Below, piece after piece: positions 44,308 through 64,000 of a stretch of DNA of 64,000 nt. Position 1 is the stretch's first letter. The number at the start of each line of letters is the position of its first letter. A program made the translations under genes and the position numbers. The notes below the pieces were generated by a model, which saw only the letters and a program-made list of their open reading frames with translations, ran no database searches and was not told the DNA's origin. This DNA comes from Candidatus Shapirobacteria bacterium (GTDB taxonomy: Bacteria; Patescibacteriota; Microgenomatia; UBA12405), in NCBI GenBank assembly GCA_041649835.1, contig JBAZML010000001.1:38722-102721 (forward strand), given 5' to 3'.

Positions 44308-47300
44308 TTATTTTTTCTTTCTAATCGCACTGAAAAGATAAAACACAAAACCAATTCCGGAGATAACAATTGAAAATATGACAAAAAAGATACTGGAACT
44401 ACCACCAATTGAAAGACTTGATAAAGGGGAAAAACCATCACCAGAAGATTCAAGATTGGAACCCATCATCAAACTTGAAGATTTGTTTAATGAGGACGAG
44501 GGTGAGAGAATCATGTTGCCAAAAATGGGGGAACGTTGATTATTTTCAACTGGAGAACTATCCTGATAACGATCATAACTATTAATGTTGTCATTGAGTC
44601 TGTCGAATTGCTGTTCGTTAACTAAGGCAATTAATGATGAATAAGGACTAACAATATTAGACTTCTCAGAAATAGAATTGAGCTCATCCATAATGGTAAT
44701 GTCACCGACAATTTCCCGATTTTGATTTTGGGCAAATTTAATTTGAAGACCTTTGTTGGCAATATTAGCAAAGTTGGATGGGGGTGAAAAAACTGAATCG
44801 GGAAGAAAGCTTAGTAAATTGCTGTATTGTAAGCTCCAAAACTTATTTATAGTGACTGTCCCCTCTCCGTATTTTTCTTTAGATATTTTGGTTAACAAAA
44901 ATGATTGTATAGCCTCGGTAAATGACAGAGCTGATCCACCACCGCTTTGCCAAGTTCCGCTAGTCATTTCCAAATTTAAAGGTGGAATTTTAGTTTCACC
45001 TATCCAATAGACGGTCGTCGGTAAAGAAAAAGGAAAATTCGAAAGCTGATTAAAAGAAATATTTTGACCAGTAATAATTAGAACTAAATCATATTTTTCG
45101 GTTATATTTCCCAATTTTGAAAAATCAGCAACTTTTGAAAAATAAACTGGTTTTAATTGTTCTTGATAGTTATTTGAATTCAGACGAACAGAGTGACTGA
45201 GAAGGTTGTTGAGTTTATAAAAATCTACGATTGAATTGTCCAGCCAATCAGACCCACCATTATTTATGATTTGGTTTAATTCTGACAATATATTGTTGTC
45301 CTTATTGTTAAATGAAGTATCGTAAATAATTGCCGTTCGATAATTTTTTAAAAGCGGCAAAAAAGTATTAATCTTTTGACAGGCAATATTTTTCAACTGA
45401 TCATCGTTGGCGTGATAAATCAACTTCACCTGATTGCTTAAACCTTGGAAATTAGTTGAATCAGATTGGGGTTGACATAAATCTAATTGAATATTTCTGG
45501 CAATATCAATTTTTGTTTCGGTCTCTTTTAAGGGAGCTATCTTACCATTGTTTTCCAGAGTAAAGGTACTTGAAGCATCGCTAAAAACATTCAACTTTTT
45601 GGAATATAGAGGTAGAGCAAAAGTTCCATTATTTTGAGCAATTACATAGCTGAAAGAAACTTTTTGTCGTTTTCCTTTTAAAGTGGAATTGTCATTTTTG
45701 GCAGGTATTGGAAAAATTCTTAGCCGATATTGGTTGGGTCCAGTTTGTTCTAATAGAGCTGGATCCCGTCTCTGTAACAATTCTCTTTCGTATGTTTTTT
45801 GGGCAGCACCTTTGGGAGCGATTATGCCAGGAAATTCAAGATTTGGTCCTAATTTAAGGTTATAAATAGTAGCTTCCGAAGGTAAATTAAACTCATAAAC
45901 TACTTCCTTTTGACTATATGTTTTATTTTCAAATTCTTCTTCAATGGTAACTGAAGCTAATAAACCATTATCATCCGGATTTATTTTAATGTGTCTAAAA
46001 GTAAGGAGAACATCTTTGTTACCGTTGTCGTTAGATTTTAAATTTTCTTTTTGATAATAGGGATAACCAAAAACATAGGTGAAATTTTGGGACAAAGTAT
46101 CCTGACCAGTTGAACCTTCCCGATAAACTAGGGGGTAAGCAACTTGAATAAAGACACTTTGCATGACACTCCCCAAGATTTTGTTATCAAAAGCCTGTTG
46201 ATACATTTCCTCGATACTGTCATCGTCTTCAGAAAATGGATAATAACTTCGTGAATCTAGTTTTTGGGTGACAAGATTTTTTAATTTACTCTCCTGATTG
46301 GTAAGAGAGGTGGCGGCTTTTTCCTGAATTTGGTAGTCAACCTCCTTGGTGGGAAAGTTGGCCAATTCTGATAATAAATGATTGTCGGGCCATCTAAAGA
46401 TACTTAAAGCAATTAAAAATATAATTAGTGACCAACTTATAAGGCTGTATCTGTCGAAACCTCTATCACCCAGAGTTTCCAGCAATAAAATTCGATTTTT
46501 ACCTAAAGATCTCCAGAGGGAAATAGTAAGGAAATAAGGAATCGAAAGTAGAACTAACACCAATGTGATGAGTAAAAATCCCCAACCAAGTGAAAAGAAT
46601 ACACCAGAATAATCAGTATAGTTACCATACGATTGATATCCAAAAGGGCGTGAAACATTATCAAAAACAAATTTGACGATAGTAACGATAATCGGTAAAA
46701 CAAAAAAAGATAAAAGAAAAGTATAATAAGTTGAAAAAACAGCCGCCATTTGTCCAAAAAATATAATAATCTTCCGTGAAAGGACGTTTATATTAATATT
46801 GCTAATATTTAGATAAAGTAAAAACGGAATGGTTAACAAAACCATGAGAGTCAATGAAATAAAAAGACTGGTCTGTCCAATTAAGCTGAGTGAAATATAA
46901 GCGAATAAGGCTAGAGGAACTTCAAAAAGAAAAAATAACTGCATTAAAGCAGAGCTGCTCCGTTGAAGACCCCGACGAATGGCAAATAAGATAGAAACAA
47001 CTGGCAATAAAAAAAGACAAACAAAAAGTATGGTTCTGGCAATCCCTAAATCTTTTAGAGATGAAAAAAACTTTTGACCATGAAGATAGGAAATGGCAAC
47101 AGAGATGTTGAATAGAAAAAAATAGATGTTATAACCCCAAAAAAATATTTTTGGAAAGATGCCACCAAAACGAGATTTCCTGGGGAGAGTCGATACTGGT
47201 GGTGAATTGGTTAGTCTGTCTATAACAATTTGTCGGGCAATTTGATTGGCCTCCAAAGAAAATTCTTCAGGAGTAATATCGTCTTTTCCGGAAAATATTC

Positions 47301-47508
47301 TAATTAATCCAGTTGATTCGTCAATTAATACGGCAATTCCAATAGGAGAATTTGGGTATTTTTTTCGATATTCAGTAAATATCGTCTGTTGAATTTCGGC
47401 TATTAATTCGGAGTGGGACACTCCTTGAGCGATTGCTAAATCACTAAGTTTTGCAAATTCACTTTTAATCACTATTAATAATTTACTCAAATTGTTATAA
47501 AAATGCAA
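44308..47508 (-). CDS. Large multidomain membrane protein: NusA-N-terminal-like domain + about 8 TM helices + VIT-like extracytoplasmic domain + C-terminal TM/basic tail
   Basis: 1066-aa uninterrupted ORF. Residues ~30-100 align with the NusA NTD (TEYRKKY…IAVLIDESTGLIRIF…NQIARQIVIDRL versus E. coli ATATKKKY…DVRVQIDRKSGDFDTF…TAKQVIVQKV). Ends GGSSSIFFVIFSIVISGIGFVFYLFSAIRKKK. Confidence 0.7.
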   Translation of the reverse strand: MHFYNNLSKLLIVIKSEFAKLSDLAIAQGVSHSELIAEIQQTIFTEYRKKYPNSPIGIAVLIDESTGLIRIFSGKDDITPEEFSLEANQIARQIVIDRLTNSPPVSTLPRKSRFGGIFPKIFFWGYNIYFFLFNISVAISYLHGQKFFSSLKDLGIARTILFVCLFLLPVVSILFAIRRGLQRSSSALMQLFFLFEVPLALFAYISLSLIGQTSLFISLTLMVLLTIPFLLYLNISNININVLSRKIIIFFGQMAAVFSTYYTFLLSFFVLPIIVTIVKFVFDNVSRPFGYQSYGNYTDYSGVFFSLGWGFLLITLVLVLLSIPYFLTISLWRSLGKNRILLLETLGDRGFDRYSLISWSLIIFLIALSIFRWPDNHLLSELANFPTKEVDYQIQEKAATSLTNQESKLKNLVTQKLDSRSYYPFSEDDDSIEEMYQQAFDNKILGSVMQSVFIQVAYPLVYREGSTGQDTLSQNFTYVFGYPYYQKENLKSNDNGNKDVLLTFRHIKINPDDNGLLASVTIEEEFENKTYSQKEVVYEFNLPSEATIYNLKLGPNLEFPGIIAPKGAAQKTYERELLQRRDPALLEQTGPNQYRLRIFPIPAKNDNSTLKGKRQKVSFSYVIAQNNGTFALPLYSKKLNVFSDASSTFTLENNGKIAPLKETETKIDIARNIQLDLCQPQSDSTNFQGLSNQVKLIYHANDDQLKNIACQKINTFLPLLKNYRTAIIYDTSFNNKDNNILSELNQIINNGGSDWLDNSIVDFYKLNNLLSHSVRLNSNNYQEQLKPVYFSKVADFSKLGNITEKYDLVLIITGQNISFNQLSNFPFSLPTTVYWIGETKIPPLNLEMTSGTWQSGGGSALSFTEAIQSFLLTKISKEKYGEGTVTINKFWSLQYSNLLSFLPDSVFSPPSNFANIANKGLQIKFAQNQNREIVGDITIMDELNSISEKSNIVSPYSSLIALVNEQQFDRLNDNINSYDRYQDSSPVENNQRSPIFGNMILSPSSSLNKSSSLMMGSNLESSGDGFSPLSSLSIGGSSSIFFVIFSIVISGIGFVFYLFSAIRKKK

Positions 47509-52859: not shown

Positions 52860-53537
52860 ATGAAATTCGATATTATTACCTTATTTCCCGAAATGTTTGA
52901 GGGTGTATTTAATAAAAGTATTATCGGCAGAGCCAAGGAAAAGGACTTGGTCGAGATTAATTTACATCAAATGAGACAATGGGCGTGGAATTCGTATGGA
53001 GCAGTCGATGATAAACCATATGGAGGTGATGTCGGAATGCTGATAAGAGTGGACGTAATTGATAAAGCTATAAAAGAGATTCTAGAAACCAGAAACGAAA
53101 AAACAGAAAAAAAACCGAGAATTATTTTAACCTCAGCTAGAGGAAAAAAATTTGAACAACAAGATGCAGAAAGATTGAGTAAAGAAGAAAATATAATTAT
53201 AATTTGCGGTCACTATGAGGGTTTTGATGAAAGAATATCCGCTCTTGTTGATGAAGAAATATCAATTGGTGATTATGTGCTAACGGGTGGAGAAATTCCG
53301 GCAATGGTTATCACTGATGCAACTGCCAGACTAATACCCGGAGTTTTGGGGAAAGATGAATCTAGTCAGATAGAAAGTTTTTCCGGGCCTAATCGTCATA
53401 TCGAATTTCCTCAATATACCAGACCAGCTGAATATAATGGACAAAAAGTTCCGGAAGTATTATTGTCAGGCGATCCAAAGAAAATTAAAGAATGGCAGAA
53501 CAAACAGATTAAACAAGGATCGTTAGAGCAACAATGA
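52860..53537 (+). CDS. trmD: tRNA (guanine37-N1)-methyltransferase
   Basis: MKFDIITLFPEMF… SPOUT fold. Confidence 0.9.
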   Translation: MKFDIITLFPEMFEGVFNKSIIGRAKEKDLVEINLHQMRQWAWNSYGAVDDKPYGGDVGMLIRVDVIDKAIKEILETRNEKTEKKPRIILTSARGKKFEQQDAERLSKEENIIIICGHYEGFDERISALVDEEISIGDYVLTGGEIPAMVITDATARLIPGVLGKDESSQIESFSGPNRHIEFPQYTRPAEYNGQKVPEVLLSGDPKKIKEWQNKQIKQGSLEQQ

Positions 53538-53808
53538 CGGCAAAAAGTGATAATAGAAAGTATTCAAGAATAACGGAAAGTTGAAGATCGCCCCGACGAT
53601 GATGATGAAATAAACTCCAAATAAAATATAAAGCGGCGGTACTACAAACAAGAATACGTTCATCACGAACATCAAAATTGAGCTGAAAATAGAACAAGAG
53701 AAAGAGAGAAACCGCTAATATTATACCTAATATAAGGTAATTAAGAGAATGTTTTTTTATTTCTTTTAAAATAATCATTGAATTAAAAGATAGTCCCCTG
53801 TCGGCCAA
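53509..53808 (-). CDS. Hypothetical small membrane protein (99 aa)
   Basis: ORF with two TM segments. Its start overlaps the end of the CAP-domain gene. Confidence 0.3.
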   Translation of the reverse strand: MADRGLSFNSMIILKEIKKHSLNYLILGIILAVSLFLLFYFQLNFDVRDERILVCSTAALYFIWSLFHHHRRGDLQLSVILEYFLLSLFAVIVALTILV

Positions 53809-54685
53809 AAATAAGTAACATTAAAATAATTAAAATAAAACCGATGTGGCTAGCGGACGAACCGGTTAAGCGGTGAGTATTATTTTTTAGAGTTATATAA
53901 GAATCTATTGATAGAACGATAATGATTAGGGCAAAAATAATTGAACCGATAATTTTACTTATCAATAAAGGACTGATCATGGGGGAAACAGCACTTGTTC
54001 CAAGTGATTGATTTAAGGGAATAATTTGGGGTTCGGTAATAGTATCCAAAGCGAGGGGTGCCTCAACAACAATTTCTTCACTGGATTGGGTTGATGGTTC
54101 CTTTTTAACTGCAACCTGAGCGTTGAGAGGAGTCGCAAAATGTTGAACAACCAGAGTTGTCTTGACACCATTTAAAATTCCATTGACAACAGCGATGCCA
54201 ATCTCCTGATATTTACCATTAATGATGTTATCGCGATGGGTCGGAGAATTCATCCAGGCTTTCATCAAACCATCGGTGTCATAGAAATCTTTGGCCAAAT
54301 TCTCACCAGCAACGGAATATTTGTAACCAGAAGATTTAAAAAAATCCCAAGGAGTTTTACCCGAAGGGGAGTTGTGTGCCCAATAATTATTGGTAAACAT
54401 ATCCGTAGCTTTGGCGGCTGCAGATTGAGAAAGAACTGGATTATATTGTAAAAGTGAAAGACCCATTTTTTGTCGCTCGACATTGGTTTGAGAAAGAACC
54501 TTTTGAGTGGTAATTTCCGAAGAATAGCCAAGTATTCCGGGTTTTAACATTGTCAGTGACGAGATAATTGATTGATTAAGAAGATAAATGGCAATAAAAA
54601 TCCCCAAAAAAGAAGGGGAAAGCATCAAGGCCCGGTGATTATTTTGTTCCTGAGGAATAAAAAGTAAAGAAATAAATCTGGCCAT
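53783..54685 (-). CDS. CAP/SCP (YkwD-like) domain protein with flanking TM anchors
   Basis: …YWAHNSPSGKTPW…GENLA…W..S..HRDNI… CAP core. Confidence 0.65.
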   Translation of the reverse strand: MARFISLLFIPQEQNNHRALMLSPSFLGIFIAIYLLNQSIISSLTMLKPGILGYSSEITTQKVLSQTNVERQKMGLSLLQYNPVLSQSAAAKATDMFTNNYWAHNSPSGKTPWDFFKSSGYKYSVAGENLAKDFYDTDGLMKAWMNSPTHRDNIINGKYQEIGIAVVNGILNGVKTTLVVQHFATPLNAQVAVKKEPSTQSSEEIVVEAPLALDTITEPQIIPLNQSLGTSAVSPMISPLLISKIIGSIIFALIIIVLSIDSYITLKNNTHRLTGSSASHIGFILIILMLLIFGRQGTIF

Positions 54686-54713
54686 AATTCAGTATAGCTT
54701 TTTATGATTTTGA

Positions 54714-55319
54714 CTACAAGATACCTTTCTCTTTAAGCTGTTGACGGACATTTTTTGAATCTTCACATAATATGGTTGTAATCCCCAATTCATGGGCAGT
54801 TTCAATATTTTTTGGAGAATCATCAATAAAAACAATTTCTTTAGCATTTACTTCTAAAACATCTATCAAATTATAAAAAGCATCCCGATTGGGTTTTGCT
54901 AAACCGGTTTCGCCAGAAATTAACATCAAATCAAATATTTTATCTAAGTGTTCGACTTCCCGCATGCGCCGTCCTCCCTCTTTAGAATAATTTGAAAACA
55001 GGGCTGTTTTATAACCATCAGATTTAAGCTTTTTAATTATAAAAATAATATTTTTGTTAATTTTTTTAGGTTTTTTAACAAAAGTTAAAACTTCTTCAAG
55101 TAAAAAAATTTTATCCATATCGAAAAGAACCCGACGCCACAATTCTTCCCAAGAAATTTTTCCTATATTGTGCAGATTATTGTGACGATAATATATTTTT
55201 TTGTAATCAGCAATTTTGACATCGATAATTTTAGAAATATTCTGATCAAATTTAAGGCCTGTATCCCCAGCGACCACCCCAGCATAATCAAAAACAATGG
55301 CTTTATACTTCATATTCAA
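54714..55319 (-). CDS. HAD-superfamily hydrolase
   Basis: Motif I AIVFDYAGVV. Confidence 0.6.
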   Translation of the reverse strand: MNMKYKAIVFDYAGVVAGDTGLKFDQNISKIIDVKIADYKKIYYRHNNLHNIGKISWEELWRRVLFDMDKIFLLEEVLTFVKKPKKINKNIIFIIKKLKSDGYKTALFSNYSKEGGRRMREVEHLDKIFDLMLISGETGLAKPNRDAFYNLIDVLEVNAKEIVFIDDSPKNIETAHELGITTILCEDSKNVRQQLKEKGIL

Positions 55320-55348
55320 GAGTATATCAGCATTAAAGATTGGATAAA

Positions 55349-56224
55349 TTATTTCGTTAAACTTTCTATGTACGAGACTTTCAAAAATGTGGGTAGAAGT
55401 TTAAAGGAGGCGATGATGGCATCTAAATCTTGCTGGCCATCCGGTAAACCGCCGGCAGCCAATATCCTTTCACCGACGCCCCCTACATTAATGGGTACGG
55501 CACCTAAAATTCTTGATACATAATATTTTTGATTCGGACCGGATATCTTTCCGGAACTTAAAACAGCTTTTACCTTGGCTTCAACAACTCCATAATTTGA
55601 TGGGTTCTCAACTCTTCCGGCTGATTGGGAACAAATTATTGTGGGTTGGAGATTTCTTGATTTTGGAAGAGCCAACATAACAACACCTGTCCTGTCATTT
55701 GGCAATTCTGAATCTATTTTTTTTAAACATGAATAAACTATTTCAACGGCAGGTAAGGTTTCTCTAACTTTTTTGTTAGCTGATAAAATAGCTTTTTGGG
55801 ATATTTCAGCTCCTTCTAGTGGTTTGATATCTTCAGAAACCGTAACAACCGTCAATCCGGAGATTTTATCAATAGCAAAACCCGGAATAGTAGTAGCGTT
55901 AAAATATATTCCATAGCTAGCGGAAGATCTTTCATCATTTTTAAGTTTTTGTAATTGTCCAGATGCTGATCTACCTCCAACGACCAATGAATATTTTGCT
56001 TGTAAGATAGCTTGATTAGTCAATCTTTGTATTGATTCGTCGTATGTTTCAGTGTTTTCGCCAAATCCTTCATTATCTGAAGTTCGGACTGCCAGTGGAT
56101 AATCATAAGCAAATCCATATGTGACCCTCACAAGAGAATTTTTAACCTGATTTCGAGATAAAATTTCAGTTGCTTTGTCAGCCAATTTGGCAGCTCTAAT
56201 ATATAATTCAACACCATGTTTCAT
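55349..56224 (-). CDS. Hypothetical soluble protein (291 aa)
   Basis: No motif recognised. Co-directional with and tightly spaced to the surface cluster. Confidence 0.4.
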   Translation of the reverse strand: MKHGVELYIRAAKLADKATEILSRNQVKNSLVRVTYGFAYDYPLAVRTSDNEGFGENTETYDESIQRLTNQAILQAKYSLVVGGRSASGQLQKLKNDERSSASYGIYFNATTIPGFAIDKISGLTVVTVSEDIKPLEGAEISQKAILSANKKVRETLPAVEIVYSCLKKIDSELPNDRTGVVMLALPKSRNLQPTIICSQSAGRVENPSNYGVVEAKVKAVLSSGKISGPNQKYYVSRILGAVPINVGGVGERILAAGGLPDGQQDLDAIIASFKLLPTFLKVSYIESLTK

Positions 56225-56271
56225 ATGTTGAATATTTTACTTTGAATTTAAGTAAAAGTAAAGATTATAGG

Positions 56272-57429
56272 CTATAATTTTATTTGTTTTTCACATTTCT
56301 TTTTCAATGAAAATATTAGAGGTAAAAGAAACGAAAAAATGTTACCAAGATAATAATAAGGAAATTTTTGACAGGTGGATTTTGATAAGTAATAGTCAAA
56401 GATTAGGGATAATATAGAAATTGATAAAGTAATGAAGTGATAGGGACAAATTATTATGTTGACCATGAGCGCTAAAAGAAAAGCAAAAGGAAAAATATTG
56501 ACACAACTGACACCCTCAACACTACCAGTAGTATCTGGAACAGTATCCTGTACACCCAAGATTTCAGAGTTAAAACCGATAGCAGGTTGTTGATTTACTA
56601 AAACTTGACCATTTGGGATAGCTGACACAATATCGGAAAATATACCAGAGGCACAGCCGTTGCCAGTGCGAATCTTAAAATAATAAATAGTGTCAGCGGA
56701 AAGATTATTAATTGTATATGAGTTAATCCCCTTGCCACCAATATTTGGATTACCATATTTTCCGGCATCCGGATTATTGCTATAAGCAATTAGATAATAT
56801 GTAAAATTATCAGTAGGTTCATCCCAAAAAAGCGTAACTGTATTTTGACCACTAATAGTTCGTAAATTTTGAGGAATCTGAAAAGGTGTAGCATCACGAC
56901 ACCGAATATCGATGTCACTTGAGGTGTTTTCATTGGAAGCTATAGTGGGGACAGGAGTGACGTTTTCAGTGTCACATGTAAAATTAAAACTAATATCAAA
57001 ATAGTTGTTTTGTAATTGAAATTCATTGCCTGCCGATTGTTTTAGGGATATTGTCCAGCGATAGTCTTTATATTGATTTCCATCTATATTACCCAATTGA
57101 TGGGTTTTTTCATCAAATATGTCGCTAATTTGTCCCGAATACCAAACATCGCTTCCATTGACTACACTCAATGTTAAAACTGTTGATAAATTATTGGAAT
57201 TTAAAATTGGGTTGAATTTAAATAGAAGATTACAACTATCTGTACGATGATTTATTACTTTTAGAGTTTGCGAATTGATGAATCCGGGGACAATATTTAA
57301 TTCGTTAAAAAATGGTAATTTATGTGACTTGGTGCAGGAATCAGTAGAACAAGTAATGGTTATATCATTGCCAGCAAAAACAGGAGAAGAAAAAATGATT
57401 AAAATAATAAGAAAAATTATTATTTTCAC
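56272..57429 (-). CDS. Secreted/surface protein with a fibronectin-III-like domain and a C-terminal multi-TM anchor
   Basis: Sec signal peptide MKIIIFLIILIIFSSPVFAG. FN3-like segment …TVTLFWDEPTDNFTYYLIAYS…TIYYFKIRT…. The start overlaps the upstream gene stop by 4 nt. Confidence 0.6.
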   Translation of the reverse strand: MKIIIFLIILIIFSSPVFAGNDITITCSTDSCTKSHKLPFFNELNIVPGFINSQTLKVINHRTDSCNLLFKFNPILNSNNLSTVLTLSVVNGSDVWYSGQISDIFDEKTHQLGNIDGNQYKDYRWTISLKQSAGNEFQLQNNYFDISFNFTCDTENVTPVPTIASNENTSSDIDIRCRDATPFQIPQNLRTISGQNTVTLFWDEPTDNFTYYLIAYSNNPDAGKYGNPNIGGKGINSYTINNLSADTIYYFKIRTGNGCASGIFSDIVSAIPNGQVLVNQQPAIGFNSEILGVQDTVPDTTGSVEGVSCVNIFPFAFLLALMVNIIICPYHFITLSISILSLIFDYYLSKSTCQKFPYYYLGNIFSFLLPLIFSLKKKCEKQIKL

Positions 57430-59687
57430 AAATTAAAAATAAATGTTTTTGGCGGAAGGTCACTAAAAGTTACCGTAAAACTACTTCCTAAACCTGAGCT
57501 CGATACACATGTTCCACCACTACTACAGGTGCCTAAATAGAAATCACGAGTTGAGACCCCATCGGTATCAATTGCGTTTGGCAAAATTTGACCATAAATT
57601 TGTTGAGGACCTGAAATATCAGAATAATCAATAGTGTACGACATATCTGAAAGTGTCGTTGACAGACCTGAAATACTGAGAGTAATTTTGGAAACTGAGA
57701 GGCGAGATTCCAAATTAAAAAATGGAGGAGAATTTGTCATTACCCAAGGACCCAAGCCATCAACAATTCTTTGCCATACCGATGTACCCAAATTACTAAC
57801 CGTGGTGGAATCAACTAAATTACCGTCAACAAATAATTTTATTTCACTGAGAACTGAAATGGGGGTTGATAAAATAATATTAAAAGACTGCATGGGCGAA
57901 AGAGTACCCGATAATGAGATAGGTAAGTCGCTATTAATAACATAGGAATATTTACTTAAATCAACCGTTTCACTCTGACTGTTATTAAATAGAGTAATTA
58001 TATTTTGAGAAATTTTATTTAAAACTAATGGTGGTAATACAACGATTGATTGATGATGTATATTTTCAGTATTCTGTGCAGAATCTGTCGATGAGAAACT
58101 AACAATATTTTCCCCTGGAACAAGAATTATTGGTGATGAAGTAGAGGCTATATCTGATCCCAAATCAGTAGCAATATTATCAAAGATACTTGTCTCTCCA
58201 ACCCTGGTATCTAAAGAAAAAATATTAATATTGTCAAGATAAACCCACGAATTATAATCATCACCACTACCGGTATCAGTTAAAGAAAACAATAATTTGA
58301 AAGTTTGACCGGCAAAACTGGTTAAACTGCGGCTAAGAGTTATCCAACCGGAATCATAGTTATAATCATCAGTATTTAAGTTACCAAAATTTAAAATATT
58401 TTCTAAAATATTAGTACCAGAAAGGTCAGTAATATCAACATTAAAATGGTCATAATCTGCTATGTCATGACTAAAAAAATGATAAGAAAATTTTAACGTT
58501 GAAGATGCAGATGCGGGCAGGGAAACCGTTTGATAAAAAGAATCTGTACCATTAATAGTTTTGGCTTCAGAGCCCAAGATATAGACATTGTTGTCAAGGT
58601 CACCGTTATTAATAATGTGATGATCTCCAATAGAAGATGAAACTTGCCAACCCACCATGCCATTTTCAAAATTACCGTTAATTAAGTAATCTTGACCAGT
58701 GCAAATATGATTTGGGAGAGATTGATTGTCGAGATTGGTAGTTGGCGGAATAGTGTCAACTTTTATTTGATTGTAATAATAATCAAAGTCTTTTGTTTCG
58801 ACATTACCAGAAGAATCGGTGGCCACTGATTCGAAACTATATAATCCATCACCTTCTGGGGAGGTAAAATGAAAATTACCCATGGGGCCATAGATTGTTT
58901 CTGAAAATAACTGCCAAGAATTATAGTTGAAAGAATAATATAGTTGAATATAAGCAACAGATTCATTGTCATCAGCAGTGGACATAATATTGAAGTTGTG
59001 AATGTTTTTGGTTGAAATATCCATCAAATCTATTGATGATTCCGGTGGAGTTAACTCTCCGATAGAAAAAGTTATGCCGGAAATTAAACTAGTTGAAGTA
59101 TAAAATGCTGAAATACTTTTAGTAACCTGAACAACAAAAATACTGATAAATAACAGTAGTTGAATAATTATTTTAGGAAATTTCTTTTTTAGATTATTTT
59201 TTATCTTAAATATTTCTGAAATTATTAATAACCCTGCAGGCAAACAGATACCAAAAATAAAACCAAGTGGACGACGGAGAAGTGCAACGATATATCCAAT
59301 GTACGGTATGGAAAATTGATATCGTCCTATTACCCCAACGTCAACAACATCCCACTGATCGATTGTATTGTTATTATCTCCTTTGGTTGAAAACCGTATC
59401 GGATTTGTCGATTTTATTAAATTTATACGATGAAGAATGGTATCTTTTGAATTATTTGGCGAGGCAAAAGCAATAATGTCACCGGTTTTTAAGATATTTG
59501 GATTAATTGGTTTTACAAAAACAAGTGAACCTGATTTGATAAGTGGTTCCATTGAACCACTTACAACAACGAATGATTTGGGAATATTTTGAAAGAATGA
59601 TGGAGAAATAACAAAAAAGACAAATATTGACATGGTAAAAATAATTATCTTTTTTAAAATGTTTGAACTGTTTTTTATATTAAGCAC
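57426..59687 (-). CDS. SipW-type (archaeal/ER-type S26B) signal peptidase fused to a protein with a SipW-cognate signal and a CBM-like domain
   Basis: Residues 1-160: TM, SGSMEP (catalytic Ser box), ILHRINLI (His box), TKGDNN box, TM. Residues ~165-200: KKKFPKIIIQLLLFISIFVVQVTKSISAFYTSTSLISGITFSIGEL resembles TasA/CalY signals. Later, LINGNFENGMVGWQ has a CBM_4_9-like start. Confidence 0.75.
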   Translation of the reverse strand: MLNIKNSSNILKKIIIFTMSIFVFFVISPSFFQNIPKSFVVVSGSMEPLIKSGSLVFVKPINPNILKTGDIIAFASPNNSKDTILHRINLIKSTNPIRFSTKGDNNNTIDQWDVVDVGVIGRYQFSIPYIGYIVALLRRPLGFIFGICLPAGLLIISEIFKIKNNLKKKFPKIIIQLLLFISIFVVQVTKSISAFYTSTSLISGITFSIGELTPPESSIDLMDISTKNIHNFNIMSTADDNESVAYIQLYYSFNYNSWQLFSETIYGPMGNFHFTSPEGDGLYSFESVATDSSGNVETKDFDYYYNQIKVDTIPPTTNLDNQSLPNHICTGQDYLINGNFENGMVGWQVSSSIGDHHIINNGDLDNNVYILGSEAKTINGTDSFYQTVSLPASASSTLKFSYHFFSHDIADYDHFNVDITDLSGTNILENILNFGNLNTDDYNYDSGWITLSRSLTSFAGQTFKLLFSLTDTGSGDDYNSWVYLDNINIFSLDTRVGETSIFDNIATDLGSDIASTSSPIILVPGENIVSFSSTDSAQNTENIHHQSIVVLPPLVLNKISQNIITLFNNSQSETVDLSKYSYVINSDLPISLSGTLSPMQSFNIILSTPISVLSEIKLFVDGNLVDSTTVSNLGTSVWQRIVDGLGPWVMTNSPPFFNLESRLSVSKITLSISGLSTTLSDMSYTIDYSDISGPQQIYGQILPNAIDTDGVSTRDFYLGTCSSGGTCVSSSGLGSSFTVTFSDLPPKTFIFNL

Positions 59688-59733
59688 CTAATAGATCACA
59701 GAATATTTTCCGTGATCTATAGACGTGTAATAT

Positions 59734-60288
59734 TTACTGTTGGGTGCCAAGAAATTGAAAGGAAAGACCTGACAGAGTTTGACCAGTGTCATTGTTGTCA
59801 ATCCCATTTAAGGAAACTTTCATTTGATATTTTTGAGAATTACCATAACTTATGGAGTCAATTTCAAAACCGGTTGTTTGCCATTGAGATATAGGACCTG
59901 ATGCCAAATCAATCCACGTAGTACCGTTATATTTTTGGAAGCTGACAATAATTTTATTACCGATTACACTCCAGGAGGAAGAATTTGATGCGGGAGAATT
60001 ATCTATTAATTTTGTAAAAATATTTAAACCAATATTTGAAAGACTCGTGTTTTTTAAATAAAACTCTTGGGAACCCAAGAAACCCGGAGCCATATTAGTG
60101 TAATTAGAAACCGGTTCGAAAGTAGTATCCCAGGTATTACCATCAATACTAATTTTGAGATCGGCACTACCAGTACTAAAAGTTAAACCACTGACTGTGG
60201 CAGTAGAACTGAATAGGGCATAGGCGGATGAAGAGACCAGTCCGAGAATAAAAACTATGAGTAAAATACTTGAGACTATTTTTTTCAT
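59734..60288 (-). CDS. TasA/camelysin-like protein with a SipW-cognate-class signal peptide
   Basis: MKKIVSSILLIVFILGLVSSSAYALFSSTATVSGLTFSTGSADL. Compare B. cereus CalY GGGTFAYFSDKEVSNNTFAAGTLDL. No LPXTG. 184 aa. Confidence 0.6.
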   Translation of the reverse strand: MKKIVSSILLIVFILGLVSSSAYALFSSTATVSGLTFSTGSADLKISIDGNTWDTTFEPVSNYTNMAPGFLGSQEFYLKNTSLSNIGLNIFTKLIDNSPASNSSSWSVIGNKIIVSFQKYNGTTWIDLASGPISQWQTTGFEIDSISYGNSQKYQMKVSLNGIDNNDTGQTLSGLSFQFLGTQQ

Positions 60289-60371
60289 TAATATTTACCT
60301 TTAAATTGTCAAAAATATAACATTTGACTAGTAAATATTAATACAATGTAAGAAAGTGTACAACTAGATAA

Positions 60372-60977
60372 TCAGATTGATTTTGCTATGATTATCAAAC
60401 GGCTGAGCGTAGTACCCGGAGGCCAACAAGTCATCAAAGTTAGTGTATTAGTGTTTTGTTTATTAGATAAGTAGTTGATATCGGTGTTTTTGACAATCTT
60501 TTTTTCAGCGACTTTATATTTGTACTCACTTTTTTCATAGTTAATTGTAATTTCGTCATCCAAATCAAGCTTGTCTGTCAAATAAAAAATGGCATTAAAT
60601 TGATTGGCCTGATACCAGGAATTGGCTGAGTGAGCAAAGATAAAGATATTACCCGGGAAACCGGGGAGTCCAGAACCTTTGGCATGAGCCACCCCTTTTG
60701 TTAATGCTTTCTGATATTCAGAGGAGTTATAGGGATCAACATTTTTAACCACATTGGCATTGACACCAATTTTAGGAATTTGAATTGAAAAATCTGTGTT
60801 TATCGGTACTATTTGGTCTTTTGATGGTAGTATCTTCTGAGCTTGATAACCAAGTTCCGCCTGTGCTACAGGAAAAAAAGTTTTGACCAAAATAAATGCT
60901 GAAGCGATTACTAGTATGTATCCCAGTGGGCCAAGTATCTTATTTACGACGGGTACTTTTCTTTTTCTCCGAGACAT
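60372..60977 (-). CDS. Sortase-family transpeptidase (paralog 2)
   Basis: N-terminal TM, His in IFIFAHS, Cys in TLTLMTCWPP, Arg in LSRLIII. The start overlaps the 3' end of the adhesin gene by 38 nt. Confidence 0.8.
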   Translation of the reverse strand: MSRRKRKVPVVNKILGPLGYILVIASAFILVKTFFPVAQAELGYQAQKILPSKDQIVPINTDFSIQIPKIGVNANVVKNVDPYNSSEYQKALTKGVAHAKGSGLPGFPGNIFIFAHSANSWYQANQFNAIFYLTDKLDLDDEITINYEKSEYKYKVAEKKIVKNTDINYLSNKQNTNTLTLMTCWPPGTTLSRLIIIAKSI

Positions 60978-63900
60978 ATCTAATTATAAGGACAATTATC
61001 ACTAATGCGAGAATTAGATAAAGCCAGTATTTTTGAATAAAGTTTTTAGCTGCTCCTTGAACACCCAGAACACTTCCTTCGCCGGTAGTCTCTGCTGCAC
61101 CCAAGGTACCTGTGTCATTTGTATTTTCTTGACCAGGAGCTAATGCAACATTAGTAACAGGAATAGCACCAGTGTCTGTATTGATTGTAGTTCCTATAGT
61201 GGTTGTTGTCGTGATTGAGGTGACGACGCTGTCACCAACCGGACTGGAACCATTACCGGCATTATCAAAGGCGCGGATGACATAGTAATAATTTTTGTTA
61301 CAGTCAGGAACCGAGTTGGTAACATCGCGTTCTTCATTGGAACCAACAGAGACTGTGGAGACAACTGAGCCGGCATCTAAAATGAAGTTGGTTATATCAG
61401 CCCGATAGACTTCGACCTTGACTGTTTTTCCGCCATCATCAGCAGTTTTAAAGTGAATTTTGTAGTCACAGTTATTCGGGTGATCTTTACGATAATCATT
61501 TGGTGTACCGGGACCGGAGACTTTATACTCCATAGAAACGGTATTACTATCAACTCCATTGGCCATAACTTTAAATTCATAGCTTCCCTCGGTGCTTAAT
61601 ACTGAGGATAAAGAGCAGTGGTTGGCATTGTAACCGGCGTTTGGAGAAGAAATATCAGCACCAAATTGAGTAAAAGTAGCATCGGTAGAATATTTTTTAA
61701 AACATTTTACGATGACAAAGTTTTGGTCAATGTCCAGAGCGACAAAGTTTAGGTTAACGTCATTGGTATTGATTGGTGACTTTGGTATCTCAAGACGAAC
61801 TGATAAATTACCGACAGCAGTCGCATTATTTGGGAATAAGAAGAAGGCGGCAAATAATAGAATAGACAAAACCTTTTTAGATTTTTTAATTAGAGTAAAG
61901 CCTAGTAATGACATAAGGGTACTAATAATTAACCATGAGGTTGAAGAACCGGTTGAAGGAAGCTCCGTAGAAGCACCCAGGACTTCACCAGTTCTGATTT
62001 CCTGTCGTTCAACTCCGGCTCCAATGGAATTTTGAGTTGATTTAACAACCGGAACAATAGTACCAACAAAAGTTGTATTGACATATTGGGAATCTTCACC
62101 TTGGGCATAAACTGTACTAGATTGATATTTAGCATTGCCCATGGCTACGGCTAAATCAGTGTATTCGCCAGGTTGTTGATCTGTACTGATATCGGCAATA
62201 TAACTTAGTTCGACAACATCACCGGCTTTCAAATCACCTAAATTCCAAACTCCAGGAGAATGATATTGAGGTTCGATAATACTACCAGTAACATCGGTAC
62301 CACCAATAGATACGTGGTAAGAACCTAAACGATATTTAAATCCATTTGATAAGAGATCGGTAACCTTGAATCCGGTTACATCATTACCTAAAATTTTGAC
62401 TTTTATTTTGTATCCAACTGAGGAACCGGGAGACAGGTCGCCGACTGCATCGTTGGTTTTTGAGATGGTAGCAGTGGGAGTAACAAGACGGTTTCCAATG
62501 AAACATTGTATATTATCGCCAGCCTTGACGGTAACGAGTTTATGATTATATGAATCACTATCGGCCTGGGCACTGACAGATTTAACGAATTTAAAAGCAG
62601 CTTCACAAGCATCACCAGTTCCGTCACCATTTGAGTCCGTTTGACTTGCATTAGCAACGGAAGGACAATTATCTTCGCTGTCACATATTTCATCCCTGTC
62701 AATATCAGAACAATTACCTTGGGTTGGAGTAGCAGTAGGTTGTTGACAGTGACCATTTCCTGATGGGTTGTTACCGGTAACACAGACCAATCCACTACAA
62801 CAACTTTTTTCGGAATTGTTTATCTGACACTCAGCGTTTTCGTGTTTACACTGAGGAGCTTGTGTTGGACCAGTTGTTGGTGTCTGAGTTACTGTTGGAG
62901 TAGGTCTGGAATCACTAGAACACGTGATTCCAGTTTGAGTCCAACCATCTTGCATGACCTCACTTAAGGTATAAGTGCTTGGAGTAAGTTGATCAAAAAT
63001 AGCCCCTTTATTACCGGTGATTTTTGTATCGCCGGATAAATTGACAATCCAGCCAGGTAAAACTTTGTCGATATCTTCATTATATTTACCATCGTTATCA
63101 ATATCGTTAAATTTAGTGACATTTATTTGACCTAATTGTTGATTACCAAAATTATATTCATGACCAGAAACATAATTTGTACTATTTGGAAATTGACCAG
63201 AATTACCGTCAGGTAGACTGATTAAATGACAATTATCGTCTTTATCAGTAGTTGGATATATTGGTCTCCAACCATCTTGTAAAACTTCACAAACTTTATA
63301 TTGACCTGGAAGAAGATTTTCAAACCAGTACCAACCGAAGTGTGACGTACCGATGTCAGTATTCATCGTTTTTATTGGAGTAGGTTCATAGCCACCAGCA
63401 TTGTTTGATTTATATAGATTTATCGTCCAACCAGGTAATAATTCTTCGTTGAAGCTGGAAACTGGACCACCACTACCATCAGCATCACTCCACTTGTAAC
63501 CATGAATGGAACCTTCGGGTTGGTTTCCGAAATACATTTGATTGTTGGATTCATTATCAACATGCATTGTATAGCTTTGACAATTACCGGTAGTTAAAGT
63601 CCAACCATCTTGTTTGACTTCTTTTATCCAATAGGTTTGGCCTAAATATAGGTTCTCAAAACTAGCAGTACCTGGTTTGCCTAAATCACCGTTTGTTATT
63701 GCAGTCATGCTTGGAGATCCAGTACAAGTGTTATTTTCATAGAGTTCAAATGTCCAACCGTCTAAAAATCTTTCACTCTCTTCTATTGTTTGATTACCGT
63801 TCAAATCTTCGAATTTACTGACATAGAGGGGAGAGGCAATTTTAGTATTAGTAAAGACACAAGTAATCGTCTCACCCGAATCAAGCTCTAAATTACCGTA

Positions 63901-64000
63901 AGTTTCAGTATCTCCAATTGAACTAGTGCAAGTTTTGTCAGTCAATACCCATCCCGGAGGTACTATTTCGTTAAAGCTGTAAGTTCCAGCAATTAACCAA
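60940..64000 (-). CDS. Large cell-surface adhesin-like protein. The N-terminus lies beyond the window. It has Cna-B/SdrD-B-like repeats, a TSP3 repeat, an internal LPSTG sorting signal, then a second signal-like segment, an FN3-like module and a C-terminal TM anchor.
   Basis: The reading frame stays open from the window edge (64000) down to the stop at 60940. The ORF-track start at 63945 is a TTG. Repeated …DxDGxGxxxxxExxLxGWTFxLY… units. LPSTG-SSTSWLIISTLMSLLGFTLI-KKSKK is encoded at about 61860..61962. Confidence 0.8.
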   Translation of the reverse strand, partial: WLIAGTYSFNEIVPPGWVLTDKTCTSSIGDTETYGNLELDSGETITCVFTNTKIASPLYVSKFEDLNGNQTIEESERFLDGWTFELYENNTCTGSPSMTAITNGDLGKPGTASFENLYLGQTYWIKEVKQDGWTLTTGNCQSYTMHVDNESNNQMYFGNQPEGSIHGYKWSDADGSGGPVSSFNEELLPGWTINLYKSNNAGGYEPTPIKTMNTDIGTSHFGWYWFENLLPGQYKVCEVLQDGWRPIYPTTDKDDNCHLISLPDGNSGQFPNSTNYVSGHEYNFGNQQLGQINVTKFNDIDNDGKYNEDIDKVLPGWIVNLSGDTKITGNKGAIFDQLTPSTYTLSEVMQDGWTQTGITCSSDSRPTPTVTQTPTTGPTQAPQCKHENAECQINNSEKSCCSGLVCVTGNNPSGNGHCQQPTATPTQGNCSDIDRDEICDSEDNCPSVANASQTDSNGDGTGDACEAAFKFVKSVSAQADSDSYNHKLVTVKAGDNIQCFIGNRLVTPTATISKTNDAVGDLSPGSSVGYKIKVKILGNDVTGFKVTDLLSNGFKYRLGSYHVSIGGTDVTGSIIEPQYHSPGVWNLGDLKAGDVVELSYIADISTDQQPGEYTDLAVAMGNAKYQSSTVYAQGEDSQYVNTTFVGTIVPVVKSTQNSIGAGVERQEIRTGEVLGASTELPSTGSSTSWLIISTLMSLLGFTLIKKSKKVLSILLFAAFFLFPNNATAVGNLSVRLEIPKSPINTNDVNLNFVALDIDQNFVIVKCFKKYSTDATFTQFGADISSPNAGYNANHCSLSSVLSTEGSYEFKVMANGVDSNTVSMEYKVSGPGTPNDYRKDHPNNCDYKIHFKTADDGGKTVKVEVYRADITNFILDAGSVVSTVSVGSNEERDVTNSVPDCNKNYYYVIRAFDNAGNGSSPVGDSVVTSITTTTTIGTTINTDTGAIPVTNVALAPGQENTNDTGTLGAAETTGEGSVLGVQGAAKNFIQKYWLYLILALVIIVLIIRYVSEKKKSTRRK

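What the first reader, a model, noticed from the sequence alone, without database searches (positions are those of the whole stretch)
53509..64000. Co-directional cell-surface assembly cluster mixing a SipW/TasA-type system with a sortase/LPXTG system
Nine consecutive minus-strand genes sit with short gaps or overlaps, in order: the LPSTG adhesin, sortase, a TasA-like protein, the SipW-fusion, an FN3 protein, a 291-aa unknown, a HAD hydrolase, a CAP-domain protein and a small membrane protein. The overlaps include 38 nt between adhesin and sortase and ATGA between the SipW-fusion and the FN3 gene. SipW-type peptidases with TasA/camelysin-like substrates are known from Bacillus biofilm fibres and from archaea. 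Sortase-anchored Cna-B adhesins are a separate pathway. Having both in one operon-like unit is unusual. It suggests a composite fibre or adhesin assembly system. Three of the proteins also carry C-terminal TM plus basic-tail anchors.
Basis: partly seen in the sequence, partly recalled or inferred. Interest (0 to 1): 0.85.

Follow-up and report, generated by a model that had tools for sequence, protein, structure and literature searches.

The report
TasA fibre operon beside sortase cassette
An uncultured ultra-small bacterium of the Candidate Phyla Radiation (CPR) carries a gene set for a TasA-type surface fibre next to a separate sortase-plus-giant-adhesin cassette; both are real, but they look like two neighbouring modules and not one new composite machine.

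Summary
The nine co-directional minus-strand genes exist, and the predicted families are confirmed above curated cut-offs: SipW-type signal peptidase, a TasA/camelysin-like protein with a SipW-cognate signal, a sortase and an LPXTG signal.

Comparison with about 80 related loci splits the cluster into two modules.

1. A conserved Microgenomates core: (LTD protein, VanZ) – TasA-like subunit – SipW fused to a ~560-aa beta-sandwich stalk – a TasA-like domain that lacks the donor strand, fused to FN3 and membrane helices – CAP protein – small membrane protein.
2. A self-contained cassette: giant adhesin – tandem-FN3 accessory protein – sortase. It occupies a variable slot in only some relatives and occurs elsewhere with no SipW nearby.

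The 291-aa gene and the HAD hydrolase are sporadic inserts.

I propose that SipW processes the TasA-like subunit for donor-strand polymerisation, and that the acceptor-only FN3 protein ends the fibre and anchors it in the membrane. The sortase serves the adhesin.

Two details are unusual. The LPSTG signal is internal. It is fused in frame to the accessory protein.

SipW–sortase neighbourhoods are not rare: 17 of 79 loci have one, and a Clostridium perfringens case is published. In some organisms (L027, L037) the acceptor-type TasA subunit itself carries LPXTG. True coupling therefore exists elsewhere but is not shown here.

The parts
61963..64000 (-). Passenger part of the giant surface adhesin. 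The gene continues beyond the window and is 2631 aa in source contig L002. It contains SpaA/SdrD_B/TSP_3-type and DUF11-like repeats.
   Evidence: No TasA-like domain was detected in it.
61873..61962 (-). Internal sorting signal: LPSTG (61948-61962), a hydrophobic helix, then KKSKK. It is preceded by the 'EVLGAST' motif.
   Evidence: TIGR01167 scores 18 bits against a cut-off of 15.9. Junction DNA. The same arrangement is seen in L003, L018, L027 and L087.
60940..61872 (-). Accessory module fused in frame to the adhesin. It has a signal-peptide-like helix ending ATA|VG, a conserved N-terminal strand with the 'PKSP' motif, two FN3/Ig domains, a Thr-rich linker, a VLG motif, a TM helix and a basic tail. 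In most genomes it is a separate ~320-aa gene.
   Evidence: 168 homologues, mostly 305-340 aa. Separate gene with an 8-nt out-of-frame overlap in L085 and L086. Alignment A4. AF2 model. Foldseek matches to tandem FN3 and RbmA.
60372..60977 (-). Cassette-specific sortase with an N-terminal membrane anchor and a TLMTC catalytic motif.
   Evidence: PF04203 78.6 bits. No NCBIfam sortase class reaches its cut-off. Closest relatives are sortases of adhesin–accessory–sortase cassettes.
60314..60341 (-). Promoter-like element (TTAATA-16-TGnTATATT) in the 83-nt gap upstream of the TasA-like gene. It is a possible start of a separate transcription unit.
   Evidence: This is a consensus match only; the number of promoter-like sites in the region is not clearly above the shuffled expectation.
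59734..60288 (-). TasA-like major subunit (184 aa) with a SipW-cognate signal (…SSSAYA|LFSSTATVSGLTF…). The stretch after the predicted cleavage site corresponds to the TasA donor strand.
   Evidence: PF12389 and TIGR04088 above cut-off. The family profile A2 hits TasA structures 5of1/8aur at E 3.5e-6 and AbpX at 1e-3. TasA donor strand = residues 28-38 (PMC9674648).
59691..59720 (-). 13-bp RNA hairpin between the TasA-like stop and the SipW start. No U-tract follows it.
   Evidence: dG -19.4 kcal/mol, z -6.0. Not conserved in L003, L006 or L009.
57426..59687 (-). SipW-type (ER/archaeal-type S26) signal peptidase fused to a ~560-aa extracellular chain of beta-sandwich domains (Ig/FN3, CBM-like, lamin-tail-like). 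The start is probably the ATG at 59633, giving 735 aa.
56272..57429 (-). Candidate fibre terminator/anchor. It has an ordinary signal peptide, a TasA-like domain lacking the donor-strand segment (mature N-terminus GNDITITC…), an FN3 domain, the invariant 'GFxPxVLG' motif, and a multi-helix membrane region with a basic tail.
   Evidence: hhalign of A2 against A3: probability 98.6%, E 5.8e-16. fn3 33.8 bits. Conserved directly after SipW in about 30 loci. Homologous acceptor domains carry LPXTG in L027 and L037.
55349..56224 (-). 291-aa cytoplasmic protein of a rare family. It is an insert specific to this genome and not part of the conserved system.
   Evidence: Absent from L003 and all other loci. 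31 clusters among 1.84 billion representatives. Only faint HbpS/GlcG-like hints.
54714..55319 (-). HAD-IA hydrolase, a sporadic passenger found only in L002, L003 and L008.
53783..54685 (-). Membrane-anchored CAP/YkwD-domain protein, a conserved member of the core module.
   Evidence: CAP 70.5 bits. Found downstream of the SipW/FN3 genes, directly after the FN3 protein in most, in 22 loci.
53509..53808 (-). Small two-helix membrane protein. The likely start is at 53778, giving 89 aa. It is always paired with the CAP gene and is convergent with trmD.
   Evidence: Conserved in 19 loci. Start inferred from L003.

Best explanation
The region holds two adjacent surface-structure modules in a Microgenomates (CPR) genome.

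Module A (53509-60288) is a TasA-type fibre system.
- Inferred: the 184-aa TasA-like protein is exported by Sec and stays tethered by its SipW-type signal. The dedicated SipW cleaves it after …AYA, which exposes an N-terminal donor strand. That strand inserts into the next subunit, as in Bacillus TasA fibres.
- Shown: the next gene encodes the same TasA-like fold without a donor strand, joined to FN3 and membrane helices.
- Inferred: this protein can accept a strand but cannot pass one on, so it ends the fibre and fixes it to the membrane.
- Function not resolved: the long beta-sandwich stalk on SipW, the upstream LTD protein, and the CAP and small membrane proteins are conserved partners, presumably scaffolding or wall-contact parts.

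Module B (60372 to beyond 64000) is an independent three-part cassette: giant LPSTG adhesin, tandem-FN3 accessory membrane protein (here fused in frame behind the sorting signal) and its own sortase.
- Inferred: the sortase cuts at LPST|G and transfers the adhesin to the wall or to another acceptor. The accessory part stays in the membrane.

The 291-aa and HAD genes are passengers.
For: Family membership above curated cut-offs.

Module A:
- The TasA-like profile hits solved TasA and AbpX structures.
- The FN3-protein N-domain is homologous to the TasA-like body (hhalign 98.6%). It starts after the donor-strand segment and has an ordinary AXA-type signal.
- Only the TasA-like protein in the window has a SipW-type signal.
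- The order TasA-like – SipW – FN3 protein – CAP – small TM is kept down to 33% SipW identity, with no sortase in many loci.
- Acceptor-type TasA domains in L037 and L027 carry LPKTG/LPATG followed by a sortase gene. This subunit class is therefore the cell-anchoring one in other organisms.
- The SipW C-terminal region is all beta-sandwich, with no enzyme fold.

Module B:
- The adhesin–accessory–sortase cassette occurs without SipW.
- Sortase similarity follows the cassette.
- A second sortase paralogue lies elsewhere in the window.

Boundary between the modules: an 83-nt gap with a promoter-like site, and a G+C shift from 0.37-0.39 to 0.32-0.33.

Literature: TasA donor strand = residues 28-38 (PMC9674648). 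A SipW-coupled base-growth model has been proposed for C. perfringens BsaA (PMC11580942).
Against: - All nine genes are co-directional with short gaps, and no convincing terminator separates sortase and TasA-like. Co-transcription is possible.
- A sortase sits directly upstream of the TasA-like gene in two further Microgenomates loci (L010, L028). L027 fuses the two modules.
- The FN3 proteins of the window, L003 and L008 carry a loose LPXTG-like 'VPDTTG / LPSTTS / TPNTTG' before the membrane region.
- Fibre formation, the polarity of strand donation and the role of the FN3 protein are inferred from homology only. No structure of the TasA-like protein or of any complex was predicted.
- The TasA-family Pfam and TIGR04088 scores are only just above cut-off.
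Confidence: 0.6

Rival explanations
1. True composite appendage. The sortase and adhesin work with the TasA-like fibre. For example, the sortase could attach the adhesin to the fibre or its base, or could process the FN3 protein at its LPXTG-like 'VPDTTG', giving one adhesive fibre.
For: - Co-directional and tightly packed genes.
- A sortase directly upstream of TasA-like also in L010 and L028. In L027 and L037 TasA-type acceptor domains are sortase substrates.
- 17 of 79 SipW loci have a sortase within 10 kb.
- A 'P.TT[GS]' motif in the FN3 proteins of L002, L003 and L008.
- An LPXTG-bearing BsaB-like protein in most C. perfringens strains (PMC11580942).
Against: - The core occurs without a sortase, and the cassette occurs without SipW.
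- No TasA-like domain or SipW-type signal is found in the adhesin.
- The TasA-like protein has no LPXTG. The 'VPDTTG' motif is not conserved in the family and lacks the usual basic tail.
- In C. perfringens, srtB deletion did not affect BsaA polymers (PMC7395162).
Confidence: 0.12
2. Wall-independent sortase anchoring within the cassette. After cleavage at LPST|G, and signal-peptidase cleavage after ATA, the sortase would join the adhesin to the nearly invariant lysine of the accessory protein's N-terminal 'EQPKSP' motif. This would create a covalent adhesin–stalk pair held in the membrane by the accessory protein's C-terminal helix.
For: - The accessory gene lies between adhesin and sortase in 6 of 7 complete examples.
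- Invariant P46 and about 90% K47, roughly 10 residues after the predicted cleavage site.
- Recurrent in-frame fusion, which guarantees 1:1 stoichiometry.
- The best, sub-threshold sortase class hit is pilus-type class C.
- The accessory fold matches RbmA-like tandem FN3, the same class as the proposed membrane anchor PamR of CPR Pam pili (bioRxiv 10.64898/2026.03.03.709456).
Against: - There is no direct evidence for a lysine acceptor.
- The motif differs from the canonical YPKN pilin motif, and K47 is replaced in some relatives (L018, L049).
- The genome appears to make a cell wall, so ordinary wall anchoring is the default expectation. This last point rests on general knowledge and was not tested here.
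Confidence: 0.15
3. The TasA-like proteins are not fibre subunits here. The 184-aa protein would be a secreted camelysin-like monomer or protease, and the FN3-protein domain an unrelated self-complemented module. The clustering would then reflect only shared export and processing by SipW.
For: - PF12389 is named for a metalloprotease and is matched only marginally (23.2 against 22.5).
- Monomeric TasA is stable (PMC9674648).
- No structure or complex was computed for these two proteins.
Against: - The segment equivalent to the donor strand, including the TasA F29 and F39 positions, is conserved (F26 and the 'TF.TG' motif).
- An acceptor-only paralogue with anchoring devices recurs across phyla.
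- Solved members of this superfamily (TasA, AbpA, AbpX) are donor-strand fibres (PMC9245690).
Confidence: 0.08

Closest known systems
Bacillus subtilis tapA-sipW-tasA operon (TasA donor-strand fibres)
   Same: - A dedicated SipW-type peptidase next to a TasA-family subunit with the SipW-cognate signal.
- An N-terminal donor-strand segment right after the cleavage site.
- A second TasA-related accessory protein that links the fibre to the cell.
   Different: - SipW carries a ~560-aa extracellular beta-sandwich extension.
- The accessory protein is acceptor-only and membrane-anchored through FN3 plus TM helices. TapA, in contrast, is proposed to donate the first strand.
- Additional conserved partners are present: LTD protein, VanZ, CAP and a small membrane protein.
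- The SipW Bacillus equivalog score is below its cut-off (90.7 against 190).
Clostridium perfringens sipW-bsaA-bsaB-bsaC with adjacent srtB (PMC7395162, PMC11580942)
   Same: - A SipW/TasA-like matrix operon with a sortase gene next to it.
- In most strains one TasA-like paralogue carries LPXTG, as in L037 and L027 here.
- A model in which SipW cleavage is coupled to strand exchange at the membrane.
   Different: - Here the sortase is co-directional and belongs to its own adhesin cassette.
- No TasA-like protein in the window has LPXTG.
- No isopeptide-forming residues were examined.
Gram-positive sortase-dependent adhesin/pilus gene clusters (SpaA/Cna-type substrates with a dedicated sortase)
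   Same: - A large SpaA/SdrD_B-repeat surface protein with an LPXTG signal, directly followed by a membrane-anchored sortase that has the TLxTC motif.
- From my own knowledge: some such clusters, for example the S. pyogenes FCT region, also encode a signal-peptidase-like protein (SipA/LepA).
   Different: - The sorting signal is internal and fused to a tandem-FN3 membrane protein.
- The sortase fits no curated class.
- No pilin-motif or E-box analysis supports polymerisation.
- The signal peptidase here is of the SipW (ER) type and has a clear TasA-type substrate.
Pam pili of CPR bacteria (bioRxiv 10.64898/2026.03.03.709456)
   Same: - A donor-strand fibre system in CPR bacteria (Saccharimonadia, Microgenomatia) without an outer-membrane usher.
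- Proposed termination and anchoring by a membrane-anchored FnIII-containing protein (PamR, RbmA-like). The accessory protein here also matches RbmA by fold.
   Different: - Pam pilins are two-domain proteins of 39-55 kDa with TM-anchored chaperones.
- The paper mentions neither SipW nor TasA, and sortase only as general background on Gram-positive pili.
- Sequence relatedness to Pam proteins was not tested.
Archaeal bundling pili / AbpX (TasA superfamily)
   Same: The TasA-like profile also matches AbpX structures (E 1e-3). It belongs to the same donor-strand jelly-roll superfamily, which has been reported as present in Patescibacteria (PMC9245690).
   Different: The archaeal systems described there lack a dedicated SipW gene in the operon.

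Membership tests
SipW / ER-archaeal-type signal peptidase I (S26B) | Match to the family model above the curated cut-off | tested here: met
   TIGR02228 scores 97.1 bits against a cut-off of 51.85, over residues 7-157.
SipW / ER-archaeal-type signal peptidase I (S26B) | Catalytic Ser and His boxes (SGSMEP, HR, GDN) present | tested here: met
   S27/M28/E29/P30, H68/R69 and G85/D86/N88 are at least 90% conserved in 25 homologues. They are read directly in the window sequence. Activity itself was not tested.
SipW / ER-archaeal-type signal peptidase I (S26B) | Equivalence to Bacillus SipW (NF046067) | tested here: not met
   90.7 bits against a cut-off of 190. It is a relative, not an equivalog. 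It also carries a 560-aa extension that Bacillus SipW lacks.
SipW / ER-archaeal-type signal peptidase I (S26B) | A neighbouring substrate with the SipW-cognate signal | tested here: met
   TIGR04088 scores 20.1 bits against a cut-off of 19 on the adjacent 184-aa protein. TasA-like neighbours are found in 78 loci.
TasA / camelysin superfamily (PF12389) | Sequence membership | tested here: met
   PF12389 scores 23.2 bits against a cut-off of 22.5. The family profile hits TasA 5of1/8aur at E 3.5e-6 and AbpX at 1e-3.
TasA / camelysin superfamily (PF12389) | N-terminal donor strand directly after the signal cleavage site | tested here: met
   'LFSSTATVSGLTF' aligns with TasA 28-39. F26 is nearly invariant. 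The FN3-protein paralogue lacks this segment.
TasA / camelysin superfamily (PF12389) | Polymerisation by donor-strand exchange into fibres | not testable with these tools
   No multimer prediction or experiment was available.
Sortase (PF04203) | Sortase domain with His, the Cys of TLxTC, and Arg | tested here: met
   PF04203 scores 78.6 bits. 'FAHS', 'TLMTCWPP' and 'LSRL' are read in the sequence.
Sortase (PF04203) | Assignment to a curated sortase class (A-F) | tested here: not met
   The best hit is class C at 62.6 bits against a cut-off of 160. All class models are below cut-off.
LPXTG cell-wall sorting signal | LPXTG, then a hydrophobic helix, then a basic stretch | tested here: met
   TIGR01167 scores 18 bits against a cut-off of 15.9. 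The sequence reads LPSTG-SSTSWLIISTLMSLLGFTLI-KKSKK.
LPXTG cell-wall sorting signal | Located at the extreme C-terminus of the precursor | tested here: not met
   340 residues follow in the same frame. This is conserved in L003, L018, L027 and L087.
Sortase-polymerised pilus (SpaA type) | Pilin-motif lysine and E-box in the substrate | not tested
   Only SpaA/SdrD_B repeat matches were obtained. No motif analysis was done.
CPR Pam pilus system | PamA/PamB-type two-domain pilins and TM-anchored PapD-like chaperones in the operon | not tested
   The only link is a fold-level match of the accessory protein to RbmA, the fold class reported for PamR. No Pam sequences were available.

The most novel reading that the evidence does not exclude
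The sortase cassette encodes a bacterial 'polyprotein'. The sorting-signal helix of the adhesin and the signal peptide of the accessory protein form one hairpin. Sortase and signal peptidase would cut on either side of it. The sortase would then ligate the adhesin to the conserved lysine of the accessory protein. The result would be peptidoglycan-independent covalent anchoring. In genomes such as L027 the same device would anchor the TasA-type fibre, which would make SipW and sortase two steps of one assembly line.
Probability: 0.12. Interest if true: 0.8.

Novelty: new variant of a known kind. Interest (0 to 1): 0.45.

Why it matters
CPR bacteria live attached to other cells, and their surface appendages are largely uncharacterised.

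This locus gives a concrete, testable parts list for a TasA-type fibre in that group:
- a subunit;
- a dedicated peptidase with an unusual stalk;
- an acceptor-only subunit that would explain how such fibres are ended and fixed to the cell.

The same acceptor-only subunit carries LPXTG in other phyla. This suggests a general rule for anchoring TasA-family fibres, and it would explain why sortase genes so often sit beside sipW.

The in-frame fusion of a sorting signal to a downstream membrane protein is an oddity that sortase specialists could test directly.

Tried and rejected
- Recoded stop codons or a frameshift as the cause of the long adhesin ORF: rejected. The frame is open in two independent assemblies, and the fusion recurs in L003, L018, L027 and L087.
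- Internal start for the accessory part in the window: the codon after KKSKK is GTT, followed by TTG, with no clear ribosome-binding site, so independent translation is unlikely here. L003 has ATG at that position.
- TasA-like domains or SipW-type signals in the adhesin or other window proteins: none found.
- Enzyme fold in the SipW extension: none found, only Ig/FN3/LTD/CBM-like sandwiches.
- Rfam scan of the window: two tRNAs only.
- The 291-aa protein: no Pfam, NCBIfam or PDB match, and only faint HbpS-like hints. I treat it as an unrelated insert.
- Literature searches for sortase/LPXTG in Patescibacteria and for TasA in CPR: nothing describes this arrangement. The Pam pilus preprint describes a different system.
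- Terminator scan: no convincing terminator between the modules, so the unit boundary rests on synteny and not on signals.

Full report
OBSERVATION

The window has 31-39% G+C. Homologues come from Candidatus Woesebacteria/Shapirobacteria-type assemblies, so the organism is a member of the Microgenomates within the Candidate Phyla Radiation (CPR).

- Sortase: 78.6 bits.
- Archaeal/ER-type signal peptidase I, TIGR02228: 97.1 bits (cut-off 51.85).
- Peptidase_M73 (TasA/camelysin): 23.2 bits (cut-off 22.5).
- SipW-cognate signal, TIGR04088: 20.1 bits (cut-off 19).
- LPXTG anchor, TIGR01167: 18 bits (cut-off 15.9).
- fn3, HAD, CAP and SpaA/SdrD_B/TSP_3 are also matched.

Corrections to the observation:
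- The adhesin ORF has no stop upstream and runs off the window. In the 149.5-kb source contig it is 2631 aa and is preceded by a VanZ-like gene and a lamin-tail-domain (LTD) protein gene.
- The SipW/FN3 overlap is GTGA, not ATGA.
- LPSTG is internal, not C-terminal.

THE SORTASE CASSETTE

After LPSTG, a hydrophobic helix and KKSKK, the reading frame continues without a stop. It runs into a signal-peptide-like helix ending in ATA|VG, about 200 residues of beta-sandwich, a Thr-rich linker, a TM helix and a basic tail.

The same in-frame arrangement occurs in L003 (where an ATG sits at the junction), L018 (MPGTG), L027 (LPATG) and L087.

A database search with this tail finds 168 proteins, nearly all stand-alone proteins of 305-340 aa with their own signal peptide. 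In L085 and L086 that gene overlaps the end of a giant SpaA/SdrD adhesin gene by 8 nt in another frame, and a sortase gene follows it.

The unit is therefore a three-part cassette: LPXTG adhesin, accessory protein, sortase. In the window the first two parts are fused.

The accessory protein:
- The predicted structure is two FN3/Ig domains between an N-terminal helix and a C-terminal TM helix.
- The nearest folds are tandem FN3 pairs and Vibrio cholerae RbmA.
- The family has an invariant proline and a ~90% conserved lysine in an 'EQPKSP' motif about ten residues after the predicted cleavage site.

The sortase has the His, TLMTC and Arg motifs but reaches no curated class. Class C is the best hit, at 62.6 bits against a cut-off of 160. 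A second sortase paralogue lies at 6336-7034, next to relA/spoT. The sortase in the cluster therefore looks like a dedicated one.

THE TasA/SipW MODULE

The TasA-like subunit. A profile of 21 homologues of the 184-aa protein hits solved B. subtilis TasA (5of1, 8aur; E 3.5e-6) and archaeal AbpX (E 1e-3). Its signal ends …SSSAYA|LFSSTATVSGLTF. This stretch aligns with TasA residues 28-39, the donor strand of the TasA fibre (PMC9674648). It is the only protein in the window with a SipW-type signal.

The 'FN3 protein'. This is the most informative member.
- Profile-profile comparison shows that its N-terminal domain is homologous to the TasA-like body (98.6% probability, E 5.8e-16).
- It has an ordinary signal peptide. 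Its mature end (GNDITITC…) starts after the donor-strand segment.
- It therefore has the acceptor groove but no strand to donate.
- It is tied to the membrane through FN3 and several helices.

SYNTENY

I collected 79 species-level loci around SipW relatives and annotated them with my own searches.

In Microgenomates the conserved order is: gltX – LTD protein – VanZ – [variable slot] – TasA-like – SipW – FN3 protein – CAP – small membrane protein – (convergent trmD). This order holds down to 33% SipW identity.

The variable slot has three states:
- Empty: L007, L011, L012, L015, L017, L020.
- A giant protein with a plain TM anchor and no sortase: L006, L009.
- The sortase cassette: the window's contig and L003.

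The 291-aa gene is unique to this genome. The HAD gene occurs in three loci only.

The window's sortase is 46-52% identical to sortases of cassettes with no SipW nearby. That is as close as it is to SipW-adjacent ones.

An 83-nt gap with a promoter-like site separates sortase and TasA-like. G+C drops from about 0.38 to about 0.33 across that point.

These results together make two neighbouring modules the best reading.

IS THE PAIRING UNUSUAL?

No. A sortase lies within 10 kb of SipW in 17 of 79 loci. These include several Lachnospiraceae, where LPSTG pilins, class-C-like sortases, SipW-signal proteins and SipW form one co-directional cluster.

In C. perfringens a sortase gene flanks sipW-bsaABC, and in most strains a BsaB-like protein carries LPXTG. 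Deletion of srtB did not affect BsaA polymers.

The acceptor-type TasA domain carries a sorting signal, followed by a sortase gene, in two surveyed loci:
- L037, a Eubacteriaceae genome: LPKTG.
- L027, a CPR genome: LPATG plus the accessory module.

I infer that the acceptor-only subunit is the cell-anchoring end of these fibres. Anchoring is through sortase in some organisms and through membrane helices in this one.

MECHANISM

Shown:
- The family memberships.
- The missing donor strand in the FN3 protein.
- The conserved gene order.
- The separability of the two modules.

Inferred:
- SipW cleavage exposes the donor strand.
- Subunits polymerise by strand exchange.
- The FN3 protein accepts the last strand, which terminates and anchors the fibre. 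This is comparable to the base-growth model proposed for BsaA.
- The SipW stalk, the LTD protein and the CAP protein are scaffolding.
- The sortase cuts the adhesin at LPST|G and leaves the accessory part in the membrane.

Rivals:
- A real composite appendage, about 0.12.
- Sortase-mediated ligation of the adhesin to the accessory lysine, about 0.15. This is a sub-hypothesis about the cassette.
- A non-fibre role for the TasA-like proteins, about 0.08.

COMPARISON AND NOVELTY

TasA homologues in Patescibacteria have been reported. SipW/TasA operons and the SipW–sortase neighbourhood are also known.

New here:
- The long extracellular extension on SipW.
- The TasA-acceptor–FN3–TM protein.
- The conserved LTD/VanZ/CAP partners.
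- The in-frame sorting-signal/accessory fusion.

The recently described Pam pili of CPR bacteria are a different donor-strand system. Their proposed anchor, PamR, shares the RbmA-like fold class with the accessory protein.

I rate this a new variant of a known kind, with moderate interest.

Noticed in passing
window 56560-56575 (FN3 protein 'SEILGVQ'); 61972-61986 and 61060-61074 (adhesin); also LTD proteins in L003, L006 and L009, the giant proteins in L006 and L009, and the accessory family A4: A short 'x[VI]LGxx[ST]' motif, often within 'GFxPxVLG', recurs 20-60 residues before the membrane anchor or directly before LPXTG. It is found in nearly all surface proteins of these loci. L291/G292 are nearly invariant in the FN3-protein family. 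Its role is unknown; it could be a processing, glycosylation or strand motif.
   Followed up: partly
window 6336-7034 (+): A second sortase paralogue (232 aa, 43% identical to the cluster sortase) lies next to a RelA/SpoT gene, with no obvious substrate gene beside it.
   Followed up: partly
window 59691-59720 (-): A strong 13-bp hairpin (dG -19.4 kcal/mol, z -6) sits between the TasA-like stop and the SipW start, with no U-tract. It is not conserved in L003, L006 or L009. It may be a transcript-stabilising or attenuating element after the major-subunit gene.
   Followed up: partly
window 55349-56224 (-): A 291-aa cytoplasmic protein of a very small family (31 clusters among 1.84 billion representatives). 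It has invariant GG and G residues and only faint HbpS/GlcG-like hits. It is inserted in the operon of this genome alone.
   Followed up: partly
window 56530-56550 (FN3 protein 'VPDTTGS'); L003 'LPSTTSS'; L008 'TPNTTGS': A loose LPXTG-like motif with one extra Thr precedes the first membrane helix of the FN3 protein in the closest relatives, two of which carry the sortase cassette. It is not conserved in the wider family.
   Followed up: no
L049:3835-5889: A 684-aa protein at the FN3-protein position combines the acceptor-type TasA domain, a DUF11-like domain, a sorting-signal-like helix without LPXTG ('GEVLGAATGS') and the accessory module. No sortase is present in the 11.7-kb locus held for it.
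   Followed up: partly
L048, L061, L063, L075, L079, L082, L084 (Lachnospiraceae and relatives): In the best-resolved of these loci (L048, L075, L079, L082) co-directional clusters run: LPXTG pilins – one or two class-C-like sortases – two or three SipW-signal proteins – SipW. This suggests that a SipW-processed component belongs to sortase pili in gut Firmicutes.
   Followed up: partly
L060 (Haloferax profundi) 9869-12928: Two SipW paralogues flank a CAP-domain gene. The CAP–SipW association seen in CPR bacteria may therefore extend to haloarchaea.
   Followed up: no
L006, L007, L008, L016 and others (record titles): Several contigs with clear Microgenomates-type gene content are deposited as 'uncultured Gammaproteobacteria', 'Pseudomonadales' or 'Candidatus Methanoperedens'. 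These are probably mislabelled or mis-binned assemblies.
   Followed up: no
window 44308-47508 (-): A 1066-aa VIT-domain protein has a C-terminal TM helix and basic tail preceded by 'SPLSS'. It is another large surface protein, 6 kb from the cluster.
   Followed up: no
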